In this document: positions 23,893 through 32,701 of the stretch, one piece after another
How positions within the stretch are numbered: position 1 is the stretch's first letter
Layout: every line of letters starts with the position of its first letter
Assembly (NCBI RefSeq): GCF_046105845.1
Contig: NZ_CP151004.1
Origin: Escherichia coli
GTDB lineage: Bacteria > Pseudomonadota > Gammaproteobacteria > Enterobacterales > Enterobacteriaceae
Strand: one strand, 5' to 3'
Length of the DNA: 64,000 nucleotides
Translations under genes and position numbers: made by a program
The notes under the pieces: model-generated
What the model was told of the DNA's origin: nothing
Database searches by the model: none
The model's input: only the letters and a program-made list of their open reading frames with translations

Positions 23893-24239
23893 AAATTCTC
23901 CTGTAAAACGCGGAATATACCGTACCTCTTAGCGGGGAAAAACAGGGTTATGCGGCAACGTCGAAATTAAATGTGATCTGCCACGCCTTTTATCACAAAA
24001 GTGTCTCCGGAAGTACGATGCAAATTTGCCTGGCAAAATAAGGATAATCAACATATTACGAATCGCTGCACACCTGTGCTGATGACTACTACGCAGAGAA
24101 ACAAATGTGCAAGAGAAAGCGCTATTTCTCCCCATGCAAAGAGTGAAAAATCGCTTTGAAAGGCCATCATGATGGGGTTATATCAGATCAAGCGGTGAGA
24201 AAGCGTATTTGCACAAATGTGCAGAACCAGGAGGCGGCA

Positions 24240-25187
24240 ATGGAAAACAGTGACGATATCCGTTTGATTGTGAAGATTGCCCAACTCTATTACGAACAGG
24301 ATATGACGCAGGCGCAAATCGCGCGCGAACTGGGTATTTACCGCACCACCATCAGCCGCTTGCTTAAACGAGGCCGCGATCAGGGAATTGTCACCATCGC
24401 CATCAACTATGACTACAACGAAAATCTCTGGCTGGAGCAGCAACTGAAGCAAAAGTTTGGCCTGAAAGACGTTGTGGTGGTGTCGGGAAATGATGAGGAT
24501 GAAGAGACTCAACTGGCGATGATGGGGTTACACGGCGCGCAACTGCTGGATCGCTTGCTGGAGCCTGGCGATATTGTCGGTTTTTCCTGGGGTCGCGCGG
24601 TGAGCGCACTGGTTGAAAACTTGCCGCAGGCGGGGCAATCGCGGCAGTTAATCTGCGTACCAATTATTGGCGGACCGTCCGGTAAACTCGAAAGCCGCTA
24701 TCATGTAAACACATTAACCTACAGCGCGGCAGCGAAGTTGAAAGGAGAATCGCATCTCGCGGATTTTCCGGCTCTACTGGATAACCCCTTAATTCGTAAT
24801 GGGATCATGCAGTCTCAGCACTTTAAAACCATCTCTGCCTACTGGGATAATCTGGATGTCGCCCTGGTGGGAATTGGCTCACCGGCCATTCGTGACGGCG
24901 CTAACTGGCATGCGTTTTATGGTGGTGAAGAGAGTGACGACCTGAATGCCCGCCAGGTTGCTGGCGATATTTGCTCGCGCTTTTTTGATATTCACGGCGC
25001 AATGATTGAAACGAATATGAGTGAAAAAACACTCTCTATCGAAATGAATAAATTAAAGCAGGCACGATATTCCATTGGCATTGCCATGAGTGAAGAAAAA
25101 TACAGCGGAATTATTGGTGCACTGCGTGGAAAATATATTAATTGTCTGGTAACGAATAGCAGCACAGCTGAACTATTACTGAAATAA
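24240..25187 (+). CDS. sorC: SorC/DeoR-family transcriptional regulator of the sorbose operon
   Basis: Start at MENSDDIRLIVKIAQLYY with AGGAGG Shine-Dalgarno (315 aa); N-terminal HTH (MTQAQIARELGIYRTTISRLL) and sugar-binding C-domain. Confidence 0.8.
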   Translation: MENSDDIRLIVKIAQLYYEQDMTQAQIARELGIYRTTISRLLKRGRDQGIVTIAINYDYNENLWLEQQLKQKFGLKDVVVVSGNDEDEETQLAMMGLHGAQLLDRLLEPGDIVGFSWGRAVSALVENLPQAGQSRQLICVPIIGGPSGKLESRYHVNTLTYSAAAKLKGESHLADFPALLDNPLIRNGIMQSQHFKTISAYWDNLDVALVGIGSPAIRDGANWHAFYGGEESDDLNARQVAGDICSRFFDIHGAMIETNMSEKTLSIEMNKLKQARYSIGIAMSEEKYSGIIGALRGKYINCLVTNSSTAELLLK

Positions 25188-25256
25188 AAATCTTCCCGAT
25201 GTTTACCGTAATAAAAATTACGGCGGGTCCCTATTATCTAAAATCAGGAGTCTGTT

Positions 25257-26063
25257 ATGCAAACGTGGTTAAATTTGCAGGATAAAATCATTATCGTCAC
25301 CGGCGGCGCATCCGGTATTGGTCTGGCGATTGTAGAGGAATTATTAGCACAAGGCGCAAACGTACAGATGGTCGATATTCACGGTGGCGATGGTCAATAT
25401 GAAGGTCATAAAGGCTATCAGTTTTGGCCGACCGATATTTCCAGCGCCAAAGAGGTAAATCATACGGTAGCGGAAATTATCCAGCGTTTTGGTCGCATCG
25501 ACGGTCTGGTCAATAACGCCGGGGTCAATTTCCCGCGTCTGCTGATCGATGAGAAAGCGCCTGCCGGGCAGTATGAACTCAACGAAGCTGCATTCGAAAA
25601 AATGGTCAATATCAACCAGAAAGGCGTTTTTCTGATGTCGCAGGCGGTGGCGCGACAAATGGTCAAACAACATGATGGCGTGATTGTGAATGTTTCCTCA
25701 GAAAGTGGGCTGGAAGGCTCAGAAGGCCAAAGCTGTTACGCCGCGACCAAAGCCGCGCTCAATAGCTTCACGCGCTCCTGGTCGAAAGAGCTGGGTAAGC
25801 ACGGTATCCGTGTGGTCGGTATCGCGCCAGGGATTCTGGAAAAAACAGGACTGCGCACGCCGGAATATGAAGAAGCGCTGGCGTGGACGCGCAATATCAC
25901 CGTCGAGCAGCTGCGTGAAGGCTATACCAAAAATTCCATTCCTATTGGGCGCGCCGGAAGATTAGCAGAAGTGGCTGATTTTGTTTGTTATCTGCTGTCT
26001 GAACGCGCCAGCTATATCACCGGAGTAACCACTAACATTGCAGGCGGCAAAACGCGCGGCTAA
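25257..26063 (+). CDS. sorD: Short-chain dehydrogenase (D-glucitol-6-phosphate dehydrogenase-like)
   Basis: 268-aa SDR with TGGASGIG NAD-binding motif and Y-x3-K (YAATK). Confidence 0.8.
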   Translation: MQTWLNLQDKIIIVTGGASGIGLAIVEELLAQGANVQMVDIHGGDGQYEGHKGYQFWPTDISSAKEVNHTVAEIIQRFGRIDGLVNNAGVNFPRLLIDEKAPAGQYELNEAAFEKMVNINQKGVFLMSQAVARQMVKQHDGVIVNVSSESGLEGSEGQSCYAATKAALNSFTRSWSKELGKHGIRVVGIAPGILEKTGLRTPEYEEALAWTRNITVEQLREGYTKNSIPIGRAGRLAEVADFVCYLLSERASYITGVTTNIAGGKTRG

Positions 26064-26072
26064 GGAGGCTTT

Positions 26073-26480
26073 ATGGTCAATGCCATTTTTTGTGCCCACG
26101 GCAAATTAGCTTGCGCCATGCTGGAATCGGTTCAGATGGTTTACGGCAACGCCAATGTTGAAGCCGTTGAATTTGTACCCGGTGAGAACGCCAATGACAT
26201 TGTGGCAAAGCTGGAAAAGTTAGTGAGCATTCACAATCAAGACGAATGGCTGATTGCCGTGGATTTACAGTGCGGCAGCCCGTGGAATGCGGCAGCGATG
26301 CTTGCGATGCGCAATCCTCGTCTGCGGGTAATCAGCGGCCTTTCTCTGCCGCTGGCGCTCGAACTGGTTGATAACCAGGACAGCATGAATGTTGATGAAC
26401 TGTGTGAACACCTGACGCAAATCGCAAAGCAATCCTGCGTCGTCTGGAGACAGGTGGCAACGGCAGAGGAGGATTTCTGA
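26073..26480 (+). CDS. sorF: PTS mannose-family EIIA component (sorbose)
   Basis: 135 aa; EIIA-Man fold signature with His near the N-terminus (FCAHGKLA). Confidence 0.8.
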   Translation: MVNAIFCAHGKLACAMLESVQMVYGNANVEAVEFVPGENANDIVAKLEKLVSIHNQDEWLIAVDLQCGSPWNAAAMLAMRNPRLRVISGLSLPLALELVDNQDSMNVDELCEHLTQIAKQSCVVWRQVATAEEDF

Positions 26481-26974
26481 TGAACATTACGCTCGCCCGC
26501 ATTGATGACCGCCTGATCCACGGTCAGGTCACTACCGTCTGGTCGAAAGTGGCTAACGCCCAGCGCATTATTATCTGCAATGACGAAGTTTATAACGATG
26601 AAGTTCGCCGGACATTATTGCGTCAGGCTGCGCCACCGGGAATGAAGGTTAACGTGGTCAATATTGAAAAAGCCGTCGCGGTTTATCACAACCCGCAATA
26701 TCAGGACGAAACCGTTTTTTATCTTTTCACTCGCCCACAGGATGCCTTAGCGATGGTTCGCCAGGGGGTAAAAATAGGCACCCTGAATATTGGCGGCATG
26801 GCCTGGCGGCCCGGTAAAAAACAGTTAACCAAAGCGGTTTCATTAGATGATGATGATATTAACGCATTTCATGAGTTAAATAATCTTGGCGTCATACTGG
26901 ATTTACGCGTCGTAGCGTCAGATCCCTCAATCAATATTATCGACAAAATAAACGAACAGTTAATCGCAAATTAA
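26480..26974 (+). CDS. sorB: PTS mannose-family EIIB component (sorbose)
   Basis: 164 aa; RIDDRLIHGQV phospho-His motif; ATG overlaps the sorF stop (TGATG). Confidence 0.8.
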   Translation: MNITLARIDDRLIHGQVTTVWSKVANAQRIIICNDEVYNDEVRRTLLRQAAPPGMKVNVVNIEKAVAVYHNPQYQDETVFYLFTRPQDALAMVRQGVKIGTLNIGGMAWRPGKKQLTKAVSLDDDDINAFHELNNLGVILDLRVVASDPSINIIDKINEQLIAN

Positions 26975-27039
26975 ATAATAGCGCCTGTGTACATATGCTT
27001 TAACAGGCAGGGATGACGACACTTAAAAGGTGACAAATC

Positions 27040-27837
27040 ATGGAAATAAGTACCCTACAAATTATTGCTATATTTCTTTTTTCCTGTATTGCCGGAATGG
27101 GCAGCGTGCTGGATGAATTTCAGACTCATCGCCCGTTAATTGCCTGTACGGTGATTGGTTTAATTCTCGGTGATTTAAAAACCGGAATTATGCTCGGTGG
27201 TACGCTGGAATTGATAGCTCTCGGCTGGATGAACGTCGGCGCGGCGCAATCTCCGGATTCCGCGCTCGCCAGCATTATCTCCGCCATTCTGGTTATCGTT
27301 GGTCAGCAAAGCATCGCCACCGGTATCGCCATCGCGTTGCCTGTGGCTGCTGCAGGCCAGGTACTGACGGTGTTTGCCCGCACCATCACCGTAGTGTTCC
27401 AGCACGCGGCGGATAAAGCAGCGGAAGAGGCGCGGTTTCGCACTCTCGATATTCTGCATGTCTCCGCGCTTGGCGTGCAGGCGCTGCGCGTTGCTATTCC
27501 GGCACTGATTGTCTCGCTGTTCGTCAGCGCCGATATGGTCAGCAATATGTTAAACGCCATTCCCGAATTTGTGACCCGAGGACTACAGATTGCTGGCGGT
27601 TTTATCGTGGTGGTCGGTTACGCCATGGTGCTACGTATGATGGGTGTGAAATATTTGATGCCTTTCTTTTTCCTCGGTTTCCTCGCAGGTGGCTACCTCG
27701 ATCTCAGTCTGCTGGCGTTCGGTGGCGTCGGCGTGATCATGGCCCTGGTCTACATCCAGCTAAATCCACAGTGGCGTAAAGCTGAACCTCAACTCCAGGC
27801 CACCGCCTCCACCGCCCTTGACCAACTTGACGATTAA
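27040..27837 (+). CDS. sorA: PTS mannose-family EIIC component (sorbose)
   Basis: 265-aa polytopic membrane protein in EIIC position. Confidence 0.8.
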   Translation: MEISTLQIIAIFLFSCIAGMGSVLDEFQTHRPLIACTVIGLILGDLKTGIMLGGTLELIALGWMNVGAAQSPDSALASIISAILVIVGQQSIATGIAIALPVAAAGQVLTVFARTITVVFQHAADKAAEEARFRTLDILHVSALGVQALRVAIPALIVSLFVSADMVSNMLNAIPEFVTRGLQIAGGFIVVVGYAMVLRMMGVKYLMPFFFLGFLAGGYLDLSLLAFGGVGVIMALVYIQLNPQWRKAEPQLQATASTALDQLDD

Positions 27838-27847
27838 CGGAGCCATC

Positions 27848-28672
27848 ATGGAACAGAGAAAAATTACACGCAGCGATCTGGTGAGCATGTTTCTGCGCTC
27901 CAACCTGCAACAGGCGTCCTTTAACTTTGAACGTATTCACGGGCTGGGTTTTTGCTACGACATGATCCCCGCCATCAAGCGACTTTACCCAGTAAAAGAG
28001 GATCAGGTTGCGGCACTCAGGCGACACCTGGTGTTCTTCAATACCACGCCAGCCGTATGTGGCCCGGTCATCGGCGTCACTGCCGCCATGGAAGAGGCGC
28101 GGGCCAACGGCGCGGAAATTGATGACGGTACCATTAACGGCATCAAAGTCGGTCTGATGGGACCATTGGCAGGAGTTGGCGATCCACTGGTCTGGGGAAC
28201 GCTGCGCCCGATTACCGCCGCGCTCGGCGCATCTCTGGCACTTTCGGGCAACATTCTCGGCCCGCTGCTGTTTTTCTTTATTTTCAACGCGGTGCGTCTG
28301 GCGATGAAGTGGTATGGCCTACAACTCGGCTTTCGCAAAGGGGTGAATATCGTCAGCGATATGGGCGGGAATGTGCTGCAAAAACTCACCGAAGGCGCGT
28401 CGATTCTCGGACTGTTTGTGATGGGCGTGCTGGTCACCAAATGGACGTCAATCAACGTACCGTTGGTGGTTTCACAAACGCATGCCGCCGATGGCTCCAC
28501 CGTCACCATGACCGTGCAGAACATTCTCGACCAACTTTGCCCTGGTTTGCTGGCGCTCGGTCTGACGCTACTGATGGTTCGTCTGCTCAACAAAAAAATT
28601 AACCCGGTATGGCTGATTTTCGCCCTGTTTGGCTTAGGGATTATCGGCAATGCGCTGGGCTTCCTGTCCTGA
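27848..28672 (+). CDS. sorM: PTS mannose-family EIID component (sorbose)
   Basis: Start at MEQRKITRSDL with GGAG Shine-Dalgarno (274 aa); EIID-like membrane protein. Confidence 0.8.
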   Translation: MEQRKITRSDLVSMFLRSNLQQASFNFERIHGLGFCYDMIPAIKRLYPVKEDQVAALRRHLVFFNTTPAVCGPVIGVTAAMEEARANGAEIDDGTINGIKVGLMGPLAGVGDPLVWGTLRPITAALGASLALSGNILGPLLFFFIFNAVRLAMKWYGLQLGFRKGVNIVSDMGGNVLQKLTEGASILGLFVMGVLVTKWTSINVPLVVSQTHAADGSTVTMTVQNILDQLCPGLLALGLTLLMVRLLNKKINPVWLIFALFGLGIIGNALGFLS

Positions 28673-28723
28673 TTCTTCGCCCCGGCACGACTGCCGGGGC
28701 CATCGCTCAACATGAGGTGGTTT

Positions 28724-29953
28724 ATGAAAACAACAGCTCTGCGTCTTTATGGTAAACGTGATTTACGCCTGGAAACCTTTGATCTTCCTGAAATGCAGGA
28801 GGATGAAATCCTCGCGACGGTGGTCACCGACAGCCTGTGCCTCTCTTCCTGGAAAGAGGCCAATCTGGGTGAAAACCATAAAAAAGTACCCGACGATGTG
28901 GCGACCAACCCCATCATCATCGGCCACGAGTTTTGCGGCGATATTCTGGCCGTGGGTAAAAAGTGGCAGCACAAATTCCAGCCGGGCCAGCGCTATGTGA
29001 TTCAGGCCAACCTGCAATTGCCGGATCGCCCGGATTGCCCCGGCTACTCCTTCCCGTGGGTGGGCGGTGAGGCCACACATGTGGTTATCCCAAATGAGGT
29101 TATGGAACAAGATTGCCTGCTGGCATACGACGGCGAAACCTATTTTGAAGGCTCGCTGGTTGAACCGCTTTCCTGCGTGATTGGCGCGTTCAACGCCAAC
29201 TATCATCTTCAGGAAGGTAGTTATAACCACACGATGGGGATTCGCCCGCAAGGGCGCACGCTGATCCTCGGCGGCACCGGACCAATGGGACTGTTGGCGA
29301 TTGATTATGCGCTGCATGGACCCGTTAACCCGTCGCTGCTCGTCATTACCGATACCGACAACGATAAATTGAGTTATGCGCGCAAGCACTATCCATCAGA
29401 ATCGCAAACACTGATTCATTATCTCAATGCCACTGATGCAGCATTTGATACGTTAATGGCGCTGAGTGGCGGTCACGGCTTCGATGATATTTTCGTCTTT
29501 GTGCCTAATGAAGGACTGGTGACTCTCGCCTCTTCCTTGCTGGCGACAGATGGTTGCCTGAATTTCTTCGCCGGACCGCAGGATAAACATTTCAGCGCGC
29601 CAATTAATTTCTACGATGTGCATTATGCATTTACCCACTACGTGGGCACGTCAGGCGGCAATACCGACGACATGCGCGCAGCGGTCAAATTGATTGAAGA
29701 GAAAAAAGTGCAGGCCGCAAAAGTGGTAACACATATTCTTGGGCTGAATGCCGCGGGCGAAACCACGCTTGAATTGCCTGCCGTCGGCGGCGGCAAAAAG
29801 CTGGTGTATACCGGGAAATACCTGCCGCTTATGTCACTCACGCAGATTCAGGATCAAGCACTGGCGGCAATTCTGGCGCGTCATCAGGGGATCTGGTCCG
29901 GTGAGGCGGAGCAATATCTGCTCACTCATGCAGAGGCAATTTCCCATGATTAA
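28724..29953 (+). CDS. sorE: Zn-dependent medium-chain dehydrogenase (L-sorbose-1-phosphate reductase-like)
   Basis: Start at MKTTALRLYGK with GAGG Shine-Dalgarno; GHEFCGDI zinc-ADH motif and GGTGPMG Rossmann motif. Confidence 0.8.
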   Translation: MKTTALRLYGKRDLRLETFDLPEMQEDEILATVVTDSLCLSSWKEANLGENHKKVPDDVATNPIIIGHEFCGDILAVGKKWQHKFQPGQRYVIQANLQLPDRPDCPGYSFPWVGGEATHVVIPNEVMEQDCLLAYDGETYFEGSLVEPLSCVIGAFNANYHLQEGSYNHTMGIRPQGRTLILGGTGPMGLLAIDYALHGPVNPSLLVITDTDNDKLSYARKHYPSESQTLIHYLNATDAAFDTLMALSGGHGFDDIFVFVPNEGLVTLASSLLATDGCLNFFAGPQDKHFSAPINFYDVHYAFTHYVGTSGGNTDDMRAAVKLIEEKKVQAAKVVTHILGLNAAGETTLELPAVGGGKKLVYTGKYLPLMSLTQIQDQALAAILARHQGIWSGEAEQYLLTHAEAISHD

Positions 29954-30113
29954 TCGCGCTACTTAACTCTGCATGTCGCTGGCTGGTCGCCGCGGCAACT
30001 TCGCGACCTGATGTGCGGCTGATTGCTGAAGCGGCCCAATGTACACGAGAAGGATAAAAAAACATCAGCGCCTTAAGGGGCGCTCAAATTGGTGGCAAAG
30101 TACACATTGTTTA

Positions 30114-30218
30114 TGCCGGATGCGGAATGAAGCCTTATTCGGCATACATAATCTCGAAAATTCAATATATTGCAGTTATCTGGTAGGACTGGTAAGCGTA
30201 GCGCATCAGGCAATGCTG
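30114..30218. repeat. REP/BIME pair at the right edge of the sor block
   Basis: tgccggatgcggaatgaagccttattcggcatac and ggtaagcgtagcgcatcaggcaatgc. Confidence 0.6.
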
Positions 30219-30335
30219 TGTTTGTCATCAGTCTCAGCGCCCGGTGCAATACGTGACATCGTGAGCCATGTCAGTAAGTGGTTAAATTCGCAGTGGTAGC
30301 ATGCCTTCCGTGATTTCTTACTAACCGGAGAAGTA

Positions 30336-31025
30336 ATGGAACTGCTTTTATTGAGTAACTCGACGCTGCCGGGTAAAGCCTGGCTGGAACATGCACTGCC
30401 GCTAATTGCTGAACAGTTGCAGGGTCGCCGCTCAGCGGTGTTTATCCCTTTCGCTGGCGTAACGCAGACCTGGGATGATTACACAGCGAAAACGGCTGCG
30501 GTTCTCGCTCCGCTGGGTGTTTCTGTCACCGGTATTCATAGCGTTGTCGATCCCGTTGCTGCGATTGAAAATGCTGAGATCGTGATTGTCGGCGGCGGTA
30601 ATACTTTCCAGTTGCTGAAACAGTGCCGCGAGCGCGGGCTGCTGGCACCAATTACTGACGTGATTAAACGTGGCGCGCTGTATATTGGCTGGAGCGCTGG
30701 CGCTAACCTTGCTTGCCCAACCATTCGTACCACCAACGATATGCCGATTGTCGATCCGCAAGGTTTCGATGCGCTGAATCTGTTCCCGTTGCAAATCAAC
30801 CCGCACTTCACCAACGCGCTGCCGGAAGGCCATAAAGGTGAAACCCGTGAACAGCGTATTCGCGAACTGCTGGTCGTCGCGCCAGAACTCACAATTATTG
30901 GTCTACCGGAAGGTAACTGGATCACAGTGAGTAAAGGTCACGCAACGCTGGGTGGCCCGAACACCACTTATGTGTTTAAGGCTGGTGAAGAAGCGGTGCC
31001 GCTGGAAGCGGGTCACCGTTTTTAA
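30336..31025 (+). CDS. pepE: Alpha-aspartyl dipeptidase (peptidase E)
   Basis: 229-aa [24 protein letters not shown]...; S51 peptidase with catalytic Ser in GWSAGAN. Confidence 0.9.
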
Positions 31026-31069
31026 ATGAATTGCCGGGGGCAACGCCGCCCGGCATCCCGTGCACGGTA

Positions 31070-32701
31070 TTAATACTCGTCCCGTCCTTCATCTTCATCC
31101 GGCTGTTCCAGCACACTGTAAGCCACCGAACAAAACAGCGAGTTCAGACGCTGCATATCTCCCAGTAAGCCTAAATGTAGCGAACTGGTTTCAATGCTCT
31201 GCACGTTTTGCTGATGCAGGCGATCGACGTGGGCGTGGGAATAGCGGCGATTAAGAATGCGAAAACGATGCTTGCTGCGGCGCAAACGACGGGCGCTGGT
31301 AACATCGCCAGAGAAGAAAACCGACATTGCCAGTTTTAAATTACTGAGCAATTGCTCATAGAGCGCATCCAGTTCCTTCAAGCCATCAAGCGAAAATGCC
31401 CGCCGTGCAGCCAGCGATTTGTCGGCAATTTCACTACCCATGCGCTCGACGATATCGGAGGCCTGTTCAAGGTTTAGCGACATTTCGATGATCTCCGCCC
31501 AGCGGCGCGACTCTTCTTCTGCCAGTTCCTCTTTTGGCATTCGCGCCAGATAAAGTTTAATCGCGGTATAGAGCACGTTGATATCATCCGCCAGCTTGCG
31601 CAGCTCTTTCTCCTGCCGTGGCTCGCCGTGCATCACTTTATTCAACCCTTCCATCATCTGTTCCATGGCGTCGCCAATGCGCAGGGTTTCGCGCGCGGCG
31701 TTCGCCAGAGCAAGCGTGGGCGTATCCAGCGCGCTGACATCCAGATGTTTAGGCCGTAGCTGGGTATCCAGTTCCGGTTCATCGCGAATAATCGTTTTGC
31801 AAAACCGTGCCATCGGGTCAACAAATGGCAGCATGACCAGGCAACGTACAAGGTTGTAGAAGACGTGGAAATAGATCACCAGTTCCGCTTTTGGCAATGA
31901 CAACTTCCCCATTGTCTCTGCCAGCAAATGGACAAACGGCAGGATAATCAGGCTACCCACCAGCTTAAACAGCAGACTACCCAGCGCGACACGGCGGGCT
32001 GCGGCATTGGCGGCACTGTTGTTGAGCATCGCCAGCAGGCCGGAACCGAGGTTAGCACCAATCACCAGACAGAGCGCCACGGGGAAGGAGATAATGCCTG
32101 CAGCGGTCAGAGTCGCGGTCAGCAGTACAGCAGCAAGGCTGGAGTAGCTGATAATGGCGAACATCGCGCCAATCAGCGCATCCAGCAGAATATCGCCGGT
32201 CAGCGAGGCAAAGATCACCTGAACGCCGTTTGCCTGGGTGATCGGCGTTACGGCCTGCACAATCAACTCCAGCGCCAGTAAAATCAGCCCAAGACCAATA
32301 CCGACGCGGCCCAGTTGCCCGGCGCGTGACTGTTTGCGTCCGAGGAAAAAAATCACGCCGATAAAAATAAGTAATGGTGACAGCCAGGATAAGTCGAAGG
32401 TGAGAATACGCGCCATTAGCGCCGTCCCGACATCTGCACCCAGCACAATCACCAGAGCCGGTGCGAGGGCTACCAGATCCTGAGCGACGAACGAGGTCAC
32501 CAGCATGGTGGTGGCATTACTGCTCTGTACCAGTGCGGTAACGCCGATCCCCGCGCAAAAGGCGAGCGGCTTTTTTTCGACGCTCCGGCTAAGGACAGTA
32601 CGCAAACGCGCGCCGAAGACGCGCATTACGCCGGTTCGAACAATATGAGTCCCCCAGACCAGCAGGGCGACGGCAGAAAGCAGGTGAAGCAGCGTTAACA
32701 C
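31070..32701 (-). CDS. yjbB: Na+/phosphate cotransporter-family membrane protein
   Basis: 543-aa ORF; polytopic N-domain plus PhoU-like C-domain; convergent with pepE. Confidence 0.85.
   Translation of the reverse strand: MLTLLHLLSAVALLVWGTHIVRTGVMRVFGARLRTVLSRSVEKKPLAFCAGIGVTALVQSSNATTMLVTSFVAQDLVALAPALVIVLGADVGTALMARILTFDLSWLSPLLIFIGVIFFLGRKQSRAGQLGRVGIGLGLILLALELIVQAVTPITQANGVQVIFASLTGDILLDALIGAMFAIISYSSLAAVLLTATLTAAGIISFPVALCLVIGANLGSGLLAMLNNSAANAAARRVALGSLLFKLVGSLIILPFVHLLAETMGKLSLPKAELVIYFHVFYNLVRCLVMLPFVDPMARFCKTIIRDEPELDTQLRPKHLDVSALDTPTLALANAARETLRIGDAMEQMMEGLNKVMHGEPRQEKELRKLADDINVLYTAIKLYLARMPKEELAEEESRRWAEIIEMSLNLEQASDIVERMGSEIADKSLAARRAFSLDGLKELDALYEQLLSNLKLAMSVFFSGDVTSARRLRRSKHRFRILNRRYSHAHVDRLHQQNVQSIETSSLHLGLLGDMQRLNSLFCSVAYSVLEQPDEDEGRDEY

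What the first reader, a model, noticed from the sequence alone, without database searches (positions are those of the whole stretch)
28673..28723. Intercistronic hairpin between sorM and sorE
gccccggcacgactgccggggc forms a 7-bp GC stem in the 51-bp spacer just before the sorE Shine-Dalgarno. It may be an mRNA processing or stability element separating the transport and reductase parts of the operon.
Basis: seen in the sequence. Interest (0 to 1): 0.15.

Follow-up and report, generated by a model that had tools for sequence, protein, structure and literature searches.

The report
Conserved hairpin after sorM stop codon
A strong RNA hairpin sits six bases after the end of the sorbose transporter gene sorM and is kept, with compensating mutations, in every related enterobacterial sorbose operon examined, so it is a real but fairly ordinary piece of operon punctuation that most likely tunes mRNA stability or processing between the transport genes and sorE.

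Summary
The window is an E. coli sorCDFBAME operon. The 51-nt sorM-sorE spacer (28673-28723) holds a perfect hairpin, GCCCCGGCA-CGAC-UGCCGGGGC (28679-28700). It has 9 pairs, 8 of them G-C, not 7, and folds at about -20 kcal/mol. It lies 6 nt after the sorM UGA and 13 nt before the sorE Shine-Dalgarno.

All 35 other Enterobacterales sorM-sorE junctions have the hairpin 6-7 nt after the stop, while their distance to the Shine-Dalgarno differs widely. Pairs change compensatorily (G-C to A-U, C-G or U-A). 95.7% of cells pair, and 0 of 500 shuffles reach that. G.U wobbles fall on the + strand, so this is an RNA structure of the operon transcript.

It has no U tract, no Rfam match and one copy per genome, so it is neither an intrinsic terminator nor a REP element. 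Enterococcus and Anaerostipes lack it.

The function is inferred, not shown. Most likely it is a protective or processing hairpin of the malE-malF or papBA kind. The fixed distance from the stop also fits the known stalling of terminating ribosomes by stop-proximal structures. It is a new member of a known kind and of modest interest.

The parts
28670..28672 (+). sorM (PTS EIID) stop codon UGA
   Evidence: The stop is UGA in 35 of 36 junctions and UAA in Serratia sp. H1w.
28673..28678 (+). Pyrimidine-rich single-stranded spacer UUCUUC between the stop codon and the hairpin. Together with the GA of the stop it reads GA|UUC, resembling the RNase E motif RN|WUU.
   Evidence: Its length is 6-7 nt in 36 of 36 junctions. 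Its sequence is UU(C/U/A)UUC-like in nearly all. The motif definition comes from PMC5927463. No cleavage has been mapped here.
28679..28687 (+). Hairpin HP1, 5' arm GCCCCGGCA
28688..28691 (+). HP1 loop CGAC. Loop sequence and length (3-10 nt) are not conserved between species.
28692..28700 (+). HP1 3' arm UGCCGGGGC
   Evidence: E. coli alleles change C28700 to U (giving G.U) or pair 9 from A-U to G-C.
28701..28713 (+). Linker CAUCGCUCAACAU. Its first bases (CAUC) can pair with GGUG of the SD, making a weak candidate anti-SD that abuts HP1.
   Evidence: RNAalifold predicts a 4-bp helix YAYY:GGUG that shows only Y-to-Y changes. In the E. coli class the duplex energy is no better than shuffles. 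Weak evidence.
28714..28720 (+). sorE Shine-Dalgarno GAGGUGG; AGGUGG is present in all 36 junctions
28724..29953 (+). sorE (L-sorbose 1-phosphate reductase)

Best explanation
HP1 is a selected RNA structure of the + strand sor operon transcript, anchored 6-7 nt downstream of the sorM stop codon. It most likely acts after transcription as operon punctuation, in one of two ways that the data cannot separate. (a) It may block 3'-to-5' exonucleases (PNPase, RNase II), so that the sorCDFBAM part survives once the sorE part has been cut, as with malE-malF. (b) After RNase E cuts in the U-rich spacer at the stop codon, it may form the 5'-terminal hairpin of a separate sorE mRNA, as with papBA. In both cases it uncouples the stability of the transport genes from that of the reductase gene. 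Shown here: the structure, its conservation, its covariation, its strand, its fixed distance from the stop, and the absence of terminator or REP features. Inferred: the link to decay or processing, and which segment is protected.
For: The hairpin is stable and statistically unusual. It is present in 36 of 36 Enterobacterales sorM-sorE junctions at -10.7 to -21.3 kcal/mol. On arms aligned by sequence anchors (A2), 95.7% of cells pair, 4 pairs change on both sides, 0 of 500 shuffles reach the observed values, and slid controls pair at 28-56%. Examples are G-C to A-U in E. albertii and Citrobacter FP75, G-C to C-G in Erwinia and Pantoea, and C-G to U-A in Citrobacter MGH106 and a Raoultella MAG. 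RNAalifold recovers the helix on an untrimmed alignment. Twelve distinct rows carry G.U on the + strand, against two A.C mismatches that would be G.U on the - strand; this points to RNA read from the + strand. Mean pairwise identity is 0.87 in the stem and 0.66 at four-fold sites of sorM. The E. coli alleles (1640 identical genomes, 382 with 1 mismatch, 838 with 4 mismatches) keep the hairpin in every variant I read. No U tract follows the stem in any species, and the terminator scan does not list it. All seven sor mRNAs are induced alike in two E. coli strains (sorM 7.36 and 5.58; sorE 7.10 and 5.62 log2), so transcription continues into sorE (PMC12817954 Table S10). In the same paper the Northern signals of the sorC and sorE probes peak at different growth phases, which hints at separate fates for the two ends of the transcript. 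U-tract-less hairpins at gene boundaries that mark the 3' ends of stabilised segments, and RN|WUU cleavage just upstream of a 5' hairpin, are documented classes in E. coli (PMC5927463).
Against: No 5' or 3' RNA ends, half-lives or absolute coverage were available for this junction. The equal fold-inductions of sorM and sorE give no sign of a large difference in abundance, although fold-changes cannot exclude one. A pure exonuclease barrier does not explain why the distance to the stop is fixed at 6-7 nt while the downstream distance varies from about 13 to about 140 nt. The six outer pairs hardly vary, so covariation rests mainly on pairs 7-9. The sor operon may have spread horizontally, so the 36 sequences are fewer independent samples than 36 species.
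Confidence: 0.45

Rival explanations
1. Stop-proximal roadblock. Because the stem starts only 6-7 nt after the stop codon, a ribosome reaching the end of sorM must melt it. The hairpin would slow or stall termination, lowering SorM output and/or provoking mRNA cleavage at the stop, as reported for REP elements closer than 16 nt to a stop codon.
For: The distance from stop to stem is 6-7 nt in 36 of 36 junctions, while everything downstream varies in length. sorM has the strongest stop-proximal fold of 44 long ORFs in the window. The mechanism and its threshold of under 16 nt are summarised in PMC12306157, citing Liang, Rudd and Deutscher 2015. The sorB-sorA spacer also has a conserved hairpin starting about 9 nt after the sorB stop.
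Against: The element is not a REP: it has one copy per genome and a different sequence. A 9-bp stem is within what translating ribosomes normally unwind. SorM protein is strongly induced (log2 9.36 and 5.29). The primary paper could not be read here.
Confidence: 0.2
2. Translational control of sorE. The bases just 3' of HP1 (CAUC in E. coli, (C/U)ACUUCA in Klebsiella, Raoultella and Citrobacter) pair with the invariant SD UGAGGUGG. HP1 stacks on and stabilises this anti-SD helix. In genera with long spacers a second hairpin (HP2) brings the two strands together. sorE would then be translated poorly or late, or only when ribosomes terminating on sorM open HP1.
For: RNAalifold predicts the helix YAYY:GGUG directly abutting HP1, with 15 one-sided Y-to-Y changes and 1 break in 68 cells. 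The MFE folds of four Klebsiella junctions close an anti-SD:SD helix over HP2. Duplex energy beats shuffles in the Raoultella and Klebsiella class (fraction of shuffles as good, 0.00-0.09). HP2 covaries (CCUC/GAGG, CCCC/GGGG, UUCCC/GGGAA) and tolerates a 100-nt insertion. SorE protein induction is far lower than that of the other Sor proteins (log2 2.62 and 0.58 against 2.9-13) although mRNA induction is equal.
Against: In the E. coli class, which includes the window, the complementarity is no better than composition-matched shuffles (fraction 0.55-0.6). The SD is invariant, so no true covariation is possible. A ribosome at the sorM stop does not reach the anti-SD. Proteomic fold-changes depend on detection and imputation.
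Confidence: 0.15
3. Weak or relic transcription signal. HP1 is the decayed terminator of an ancestral sorCDFBAM unit, or a pause or partial terminator, with little present function.
For: It is a GC-rich hairpin placed directly after a stop codon, like a terminator stem. Gilliamella has long hairpins, some with U tracts, in its sorM-sorE spacer. Enterococcus and Anaerostipes manage with a 16-22-nt spacer and no hairpin.
Against: No U tract follows it in any of 36 species. Compensatory changes and conservation above synonymous sites indicate continuing selection. sorE mRNA is co-induced, and no promoter-like site precedes sorE.
Confidence: 0.1
4. DNA-level palindrome bound by a dimeric protein (for example SorC), or a recoding signal (UGA readthrough or SECIS) that would produce a SorM-SorE fusion.
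For: It is a perfect palindrome. In E. coli the 54 nt from the UGA to the sorE AUG are in frame and contain no stop.
Against: The spacing between the arms varies from 3 to 10 nt, and G.T wobbles replace G-C, which suits RNA but not a protein operator. Spacer lengths of 49-178 nt are mostly not multiples of 3, and one species uses UAA, so the fusion frame is not conserved. The loops are not conserved, unlike SECIS.
Confidence: 0.03

Closest known systems
Protective 3' hairpins inside operons (malE-malF type; the class mapped by Dar and Sorek 2018, PMC5927463)
   Same: A stable hairpin without a U tract lies at the boundary between two co-transcribed genes and is conserved among Enterobacteriaceae. 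The operon is for sugar uptake and has a transporter part and an enzyme part.
   Different: The malE-malF element is a REP/BIME repeat, whereas this one is single-copy. Most of the Dar and Sorek structures lie inside the downstream ORF, whereas this one is intergenic and 6 nt from the stop. No 3' end or half-life has been measured here.
papBA-type processing (RNase E cut upstream of a hairpin that then caps the downstream mRNA)
   Same: An unstructured U-rich stretch that resembles RN|WUU (GA|UUC) lies immediately 5' of a strong hairpin in an intercistronic region. The downstream gene is the last one in the operon.
   Different: No cleavage has been mapped. The candidate site overlaps the stop codon, where terminating ribosomes would shield it. 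The motif carries little information.
REP elements within 15 nt of a stop codon that stall ribosomes (Liang, Rudd and Deutscher 2015, as summarised in PMC12306157)
   Same: A stable stem-loop begins less than 16 nt after a stop codon, and that distance is strictly conserved.
   Different: It is not a REP (one copy per genome, unrelated sequence) and its stem is shorter. Stalling and tmRNA tagging have not been tested.
Intrinsic (Rho-independent) terminator
   Same: A GC-rich stem of 8-9 bp with a short loop lies directly after a coding region.
   Different: There is no U tract in any species, and transcription continues into sorE.

Membership tests
Intrinsic terminator | GC-rich hairpin with a short loop | tested here: met
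   9-bp stem, 4-nt loop, about -20 kcal/mol.
Intrinsic terminator | Run of U immediately 3' of the stem | tested here: not met
   The stem is followed by CAUCGCUCAAC. It is not listed by the terminator scan, and none of the 36 junctions has a U tract.
Intrinsic terminator | Marks the end of the transcription unit | tested here: not met
   sorE mRNA is co-induced with sorM (7.10 against 7.36 and 5.62 against 5.58 log2) in PMC12817954 Table S10. No promoter-like site lies before sorE.
REP/BIME | Many dispersed copies per genome | tested here: not met
   blastn of the 30-nt hairpin region at E<=10 found 2862 genomes with exactly 1 place each and none elsewhere. There is one copy in the window.
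REP/BIME | Extragenic imperfect palindrome matching the REP consensus | tested here: inconclusive
   It is extragenic and palindromic. Judged by eye it does not resemble the REP-like repeats at 30110-30215 in the same window. The REP consensus was recalled from memory, and no formal profile was run.
Protective intercistronic 3' hairpin (malEF / Dar and Sorek class) | Stable hairpin without a U tract at a boundary inside an operon | tested here: met
   Class definition.
Protective intercistronic 3' hairpin (malEF / Dar and Sorek class) | Evolutionary conservation of the structure | tested here: met
   Found in 36 of 36 junctions, with covariation. Stem identity 0.87 against 0.66 at synonymous sites.
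Protective intercistronic 3' hairpin (malEF / Dar and Sorek class) | Steady-state RNA 3' end just downstream of the stem, and a longer half-life of the upstream segment | not testable with these tools
   No Term-seq or decay data for a sor+ strain were found.
papBA-type RNase E processing with a 5' hairpin | RN|WUU-like site in unstructured RNA just 5' of a stable hairpin | tested here: met
   GA|UUC in the window. +1 is U in 35 of 36 junctions and +2 is U in 32 of 36 (read). The motif carries little information.
papBA-type RNase E processing with a 5' hairpin | RNase E-dependent 5'-monophosphate end at that site | not testable with these tools
   No data available.
Stop-proximal structure that stalls terminating ribosomes (Liang et al. 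2015) | Stable stem-loop starting less than 16 nt after the stop codon | tested here: met
   6 nt in the window and 6-7 nt in all 36 junctions. Threshold.
Stop-proximal structure that stalls terminating ribosomes (Liang et al. 2015) | Ribosome stalling, tmRNA tagging and reduced output of the upstream protein | not testable with these tools
   The only indirect data show SorM protein strongly induced.
SECIS / programmed UGA readthrough | Conserved open reading frame continuing past the UGA | tested here: not met
   Spacer lengths of 49-178 nt are mostly not multiples of 3, and Serratia sp. H1w has UAA.
Any Rfam family | Match to a curated covariance model | tested here: not met
   Only chance-level hits (E>1) were found in 24000-31500, and none at the spacer.

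The most novel reading that the evidence does not exclude
The hairpin is the sensor arm of a conserved translational switch. HP1, placed exactly where a ribosome terminating on sorM must open it, stacks on an anti-SD:SD helix that masks the very strong sorE ribosome-binding site; in long-spacer genera HP2 clamps that helix. The reductase SorE would then be made late or only in proportion to transporter translation. That would explain the low SorE protein induction despite equal mRNA induction, and the different timing of the sorC and sorE probe signals reported for E. coli ST131 and ST648.
Probability: 0.12. Interest if true: 0.45.

Novelty: new member of a known kind. Interest (0 to 1): 0.25.

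Why it matters
The sor operon is a fitness factor of high-risk E. coli lineages. Loss of SorE is more harmful than loss of the transporter, presumably because sorbose-1-phosphate accumulates (PMC12817954). The ratio and timing of transporter and reductase therefore matter. A conserved RNA structure at the junction between the two is the obvious place for such tuning, and it is easy to test with compensatory mutants. It also adds a clean single-copy, non-REP example, with covariation, to the class of stop-proximal intercistronic hairpins. That class is otherwise dominated by repeats, whose conservation is hard to interpret.

Tried and rejected
- **Intrinsic terminator:** rejected. No U tract in any species, and sorE is co-induced.
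- **REP or other repeat family:** rejected. One copy per genome.
- **Rfam families:** no match.
- **UGA readthrough fusion or SECIS:** the frame is open in E. coli but not conserved elsewhere.
- **DNA operator palindrome:** the variable arm spacing and the G.T wobbles argue against it.
- **Minus-strand RNA:** nothing U-rich follows the stem on that strand, and the wobble asymmetry favours the + strand.
- **Plain MAFFT alignment of the junctions (A1):** it put the 5' arm out of register, so it was not used for pair counts. I used sequence-anchored arms (A2) and a separate untrimmed RNAalifold run (A3) instead.
- **Anti-SD idea:** tested with duplex energies against shuffles. It is not supported for the E. 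coli class.
- **Two Klebsiella spacer insertions:** BLAST showed no relation between them. Only the sorB-sorA insert has a 10-nt match to the ERIC2 primer core, which I recalled from memory.
- **Liang et al. 2015 and its 2016 follow-up:** could not be opened.
- **Northern blot in PMC12817954:** the supplement gives no transcript sizes.
- **K. pneumoniae itself:** it was not among the 80 loci returned. Five other Klebsiella species stood in for it.

Full report
**What is in the window.** The region 24156-29953 is the E. coli sorbose operon, followed by pepE.
- The genes are sorC, sorD, sorF, sorB, sorA, sorM and sorE. NCBIfam identifies the short-chain dehydrogenase and the four mannose-family PTS components.
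- The stretch 28300-29100 is 99.8% identical to E. coli WP4-S18-ESBL-07. It occurs once in 2866 of 5426 complete E. coli genomes, where RefSeq annotates 'PTS ... subunit IID' and 'sorE: L-sorbose 1-phosphate reductase'.
- RefSeq coordinates in six strains put the sorM stop at window 28670-28672 and the sorE start at 28724. Nothing is annotated in between.

**The observation.**
- The 51-nt spacer 28673-28723 reads UUCUUC GCCCCGGCA CGAC UGCCGGGGC CAUCGCUCAACAU GAGGUGG UUU.
- The palindrome is perfect. The nine pairs run 28679-28687 with 28692-28700 (eight G-C and one A-U) and the loop is CGAC.
- RNAfold gives the hairpin in both the MFE and the centroid. The spacer folds at -24.0 kcal/mol against -14.9 +/- 2.6 for dinucleotide shuffles (z -3.5, 0 of 200 as good). 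In an 81-nt context z is -2.1.
- The exact pattern is unique in the window.
- Only two perfect GC-rich hairpins of at least 9 bp exist in the 64 kb, where shuffles give 0.23.
- Among 44 long ORFs, sorM has the most stable fold in the 36 nt after its stop.
- The hairpin sits 6 nt from the sorM stop and 13 nt from the SD, so it belongs to the 3' end of sorM rather than to the sorE ribosome-binding site.

- A scan of one genome per species with SorE returned 80 loci.
- In all 35 Enterobacterales loci, sorE is preceded by sorM and a GC hairpin follows the stop. The genera are Escherichia, Pseudocitrobacter, Citrobacter, Klebsiella, Raoultella, Enterobacter, Cedecea, Mangrovibacter, Entomohabitans, Serratia sp., Erwinia and Pantoea.
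- The stem begins 6-7 nt after the stop in every case. The whole spacer ranges from 49 to 178 nt, so the distance to the SD varies from about 13 to about 140 nt.
- I aligned the arms by sequence anchors (the C-run plus G, and the G-run), not by structure, and removed the variable loops to give alignment A2.
- On A2, 95.7% of cells form standard pairs, four pairs change on both sides, the covariation score is 0.199 against 0.129 +/- 0.013, and no shuffle of 500 reaches the observed values. Slid registers pair at only 28-56%.
- The robust compensatory cases are at pairs 7 and 8. G-C becomes A-U in E. albertii and in Citrobacter sp. FP75. G-C becomes C-G in Erwinia and Pantoea. C-G becomes U-A in Citrobacter sp. 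MGH106 and a Raoultella MAG. The double changes counted at pairs 1 and 2 come from two sequences with shifted registers and should be discounted.
- RNAalifold on an untrimmed alignment of 17 short-spacer junctions recovers the same helix.
- One-sided changes are overwhelmingly G.U on the + strand (12 distinct rows). Only two are A.C mismatches that would read as G.U on the other strand. That marks the element as RNA transcribed in the sense of the operon, and argues against a DNA operator.
- Mean pairwise identity is 0.87 in the stem and 0.66 at four-fold degenerate sites of the last 100 sorM codons.
- Three allele classes exist within E. coli (1640 identical genomes, 382 with one mismatch, 838 with four mismatches in 30 nt).
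- The variants I read keep the fold. In one, C28700 becomes U, giving G.U. The four-mismatch allele GGCG-CAAC-CGUC changes pair 9 from A-U to G-C and pair 7 to G.U. One further variant adds a U.G at pair 8.
- Outside the Enterobacterales the element is absent. Enterococcus and Anaerostipes have 16-22-nt spacers with no structure. Gilliamella has AT-rich spacers of 127-185 nt with unrelated long hairpins, some followed by U runs.

**What it is not.**
- Not an intrinsic terminator. No U tract follows the stem in any species and the consensus scan does not list it.
- Not the end of the transcription unit. No promoter-like site precedes sorE. Published data for E. coli ST131 and ST648 show all seven sor mRNAs induced alike, with sorM at 7.36 and 5.58 and sorE at 7.10 and 5.62 log2 (PMC12817954 Table S10).
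- Not a repeat. blastn at E<=10 finds one place per sor+ genome and none in sor- genomes.
- Not a known RNA family. Rfam gives nothing.
- Not a recoding signal. A UGA readthrough fusion is possible in E. coli, since the 54 nt are in frame with no stop, but spacer lengths elsewhere are mostly not multiples of three and one species uses UAA.

**How it most likely works.** Two documented mechanisms fit a strong, U-tract-less, conserved hairpin between co-transcribed genes (PMC5927463).
- In the first, the hairpin stops 3'-to-5' exonucleases after the downstream part has been cut, stabilising the upstream genes. This is the malE-malF type. In that study 26 of 34 such cases had a 3' end just after a hairpin without a U tract.
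- In the second, RNase E cuts at an RN|WUU site in unstructured RNA just upstream of a hairpin, and the hairpin then protects the 5' end of the downstream mRNA. This is the papBA type.
- Both geometries are present here. The conserved U-rich spacer, together with the stop codon, reads GA|UUC. The U at +2 is present in 32 of 36 junctions.
- I commit to this 'decay or processing punctuation' reading at about 0.45, without being able to say which segment is protected.
- The only experimental hint is that the sorC and sorE Northern probes gave their signals at different growth phases. That would be odd for a single uniformly stable transcript. No transcript sizes are given.

**What that reading does not explain, and the rivals.**
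- A decay barrier needs no fixed distance from the stop codon, yet the distance is the most rigid feature of the element.
- With the UGA in the A site, a stem starting 6-7 nt downstream stands at the entrance of the mRNA channel, so every terminating ribosome must open it. This follows from general knowledge of ribosome geometry.
- REP hairpins closer than 16 nt to a stop codon are reported to stall ribosomes and reduce expression of the upstream gene (Liang et al. 2015, as summarised in PMC12306157). This element meets the distance criterion but is not a REP. I give this rival 0.2.
- A third idea arose from the folds. The bases just after HP1 can pair with the invariant SD, and in long-spacer genera a second covarying hairpin (HP2) lies between them. 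HP2 reads CCUC/GAGG in Citrobacter, CCCC/GGGG in Raoultella and Klebsiella, and UUCCC/GGGAA in one Citrobacter. An anti-SD:SD helix closing over HP2 could stack on HP1.
- The test against shuffles supports this modestly for Raoultella and Klebsiella but not for the E. coli class.
- SorE protein induction is low (log2 2.62 and 0.58, against 2.9-13 for the other Sor proteins) despite equal mRNA induction. This is compatible with the third idea but is confounded by proteomic detection. I give it 0.15.
- A relic or weak transcription signal gets 0.1. DNA-level or recoding roles together get about 0.03.

**Verdict.** The hairpin is a selected RNA structure; I put my confidence in that statement alone at about 0.85. 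Its role is inferred. It is a new, single-copy member of the known class of intercistronic and stop-proximal mRNA hairpins. It is of modest interest and can be tested directly with compensatory stem mutants and RNA end mapping.

Noticed in passing
window 26983-27008 (sorB-sorA spacer); same junction in L001-L073: A second conserved stop-proximal hairpin, GCCUGU...ACAGGC, starts about 9 nt after the sorB stop. It is kept across genera, with a compensatory change in K. michiganensis and K. oxytoca (CCUUU/AAAGG). Its loop tolerates insertions of 25-125 nt in Klebsiella, Raoultella, Serratia and some Citrobacter.
   Followed up: partly
window 25206-25223 (sorC-sorD spacer): A 7-bp AU-rich hairpin, CCGUAAU-AAAA-AUUACGG, starts 19 nt after the sorC stop. 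All three long spacers of the operon therefore carry a hairpin. Its conservation was not checked because the loci do not reach that far.
   Followed up: no
L012, L013, L019, L020, L021, L028 (sorM-sorE spacers of 97-178 nt); L009, L011-L015 and others (sorB-sorA spacers): Structured insertions of about 50-125 nt sit inside the spacer hairpins in the K. oxytoca group and Mangrovibacter. The sorB-sorA insert carries GTGACTGGGG, the core of the ERIC2 primer (recalled from memory), so it is probably an ERIC/IRU element. The sorM-sorE insert shows no BLAST relation to it and remains unidentified.
   Followed up: partly
window 30110-30215 (between sorE and pepE): REP-like palindromes are present (gccggatgcggaatgaagccttattcggcatac and ggtaagcgtagcgcatcaggcaat). 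At 30067-30084 the hairpin AGCGCC-TTAAGG-GGCGCT has its T run on the minus strand only. No canonical + strand terminator is evident after sorE.
   Followed up: no
window 28712-28726: An in-frame AUG at 28712 lies inside the SD (AUGAGGUGGUUUAUG), and the mechanical ORF list starts sorE there. RefSeq uses 28724 and so do I. In E. coli the whole spacer is also in frame with sorM and contains no stop codon.
   Followed up: yes
PMC12817954, supplementary Table S10: SorE protein is induced far less (log2 2.62 and 0.58) than the other six Sor proteins, although mRNA induction is equal. The paper also reports that the sorC and sorE Northern signals appear at different growth phases. The paper does not explain either point.
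   Followed up: partly
window 13679-13706: This is the only other perfect GC-rich hairpin of at least 9 bp in the window (CAGCACGCCG-CGCCAGTT-CGGCGTGCTG). It lies just downstream of the ORF ending at 13668 and is probably a terminator or protective stem.
   Followed up: no
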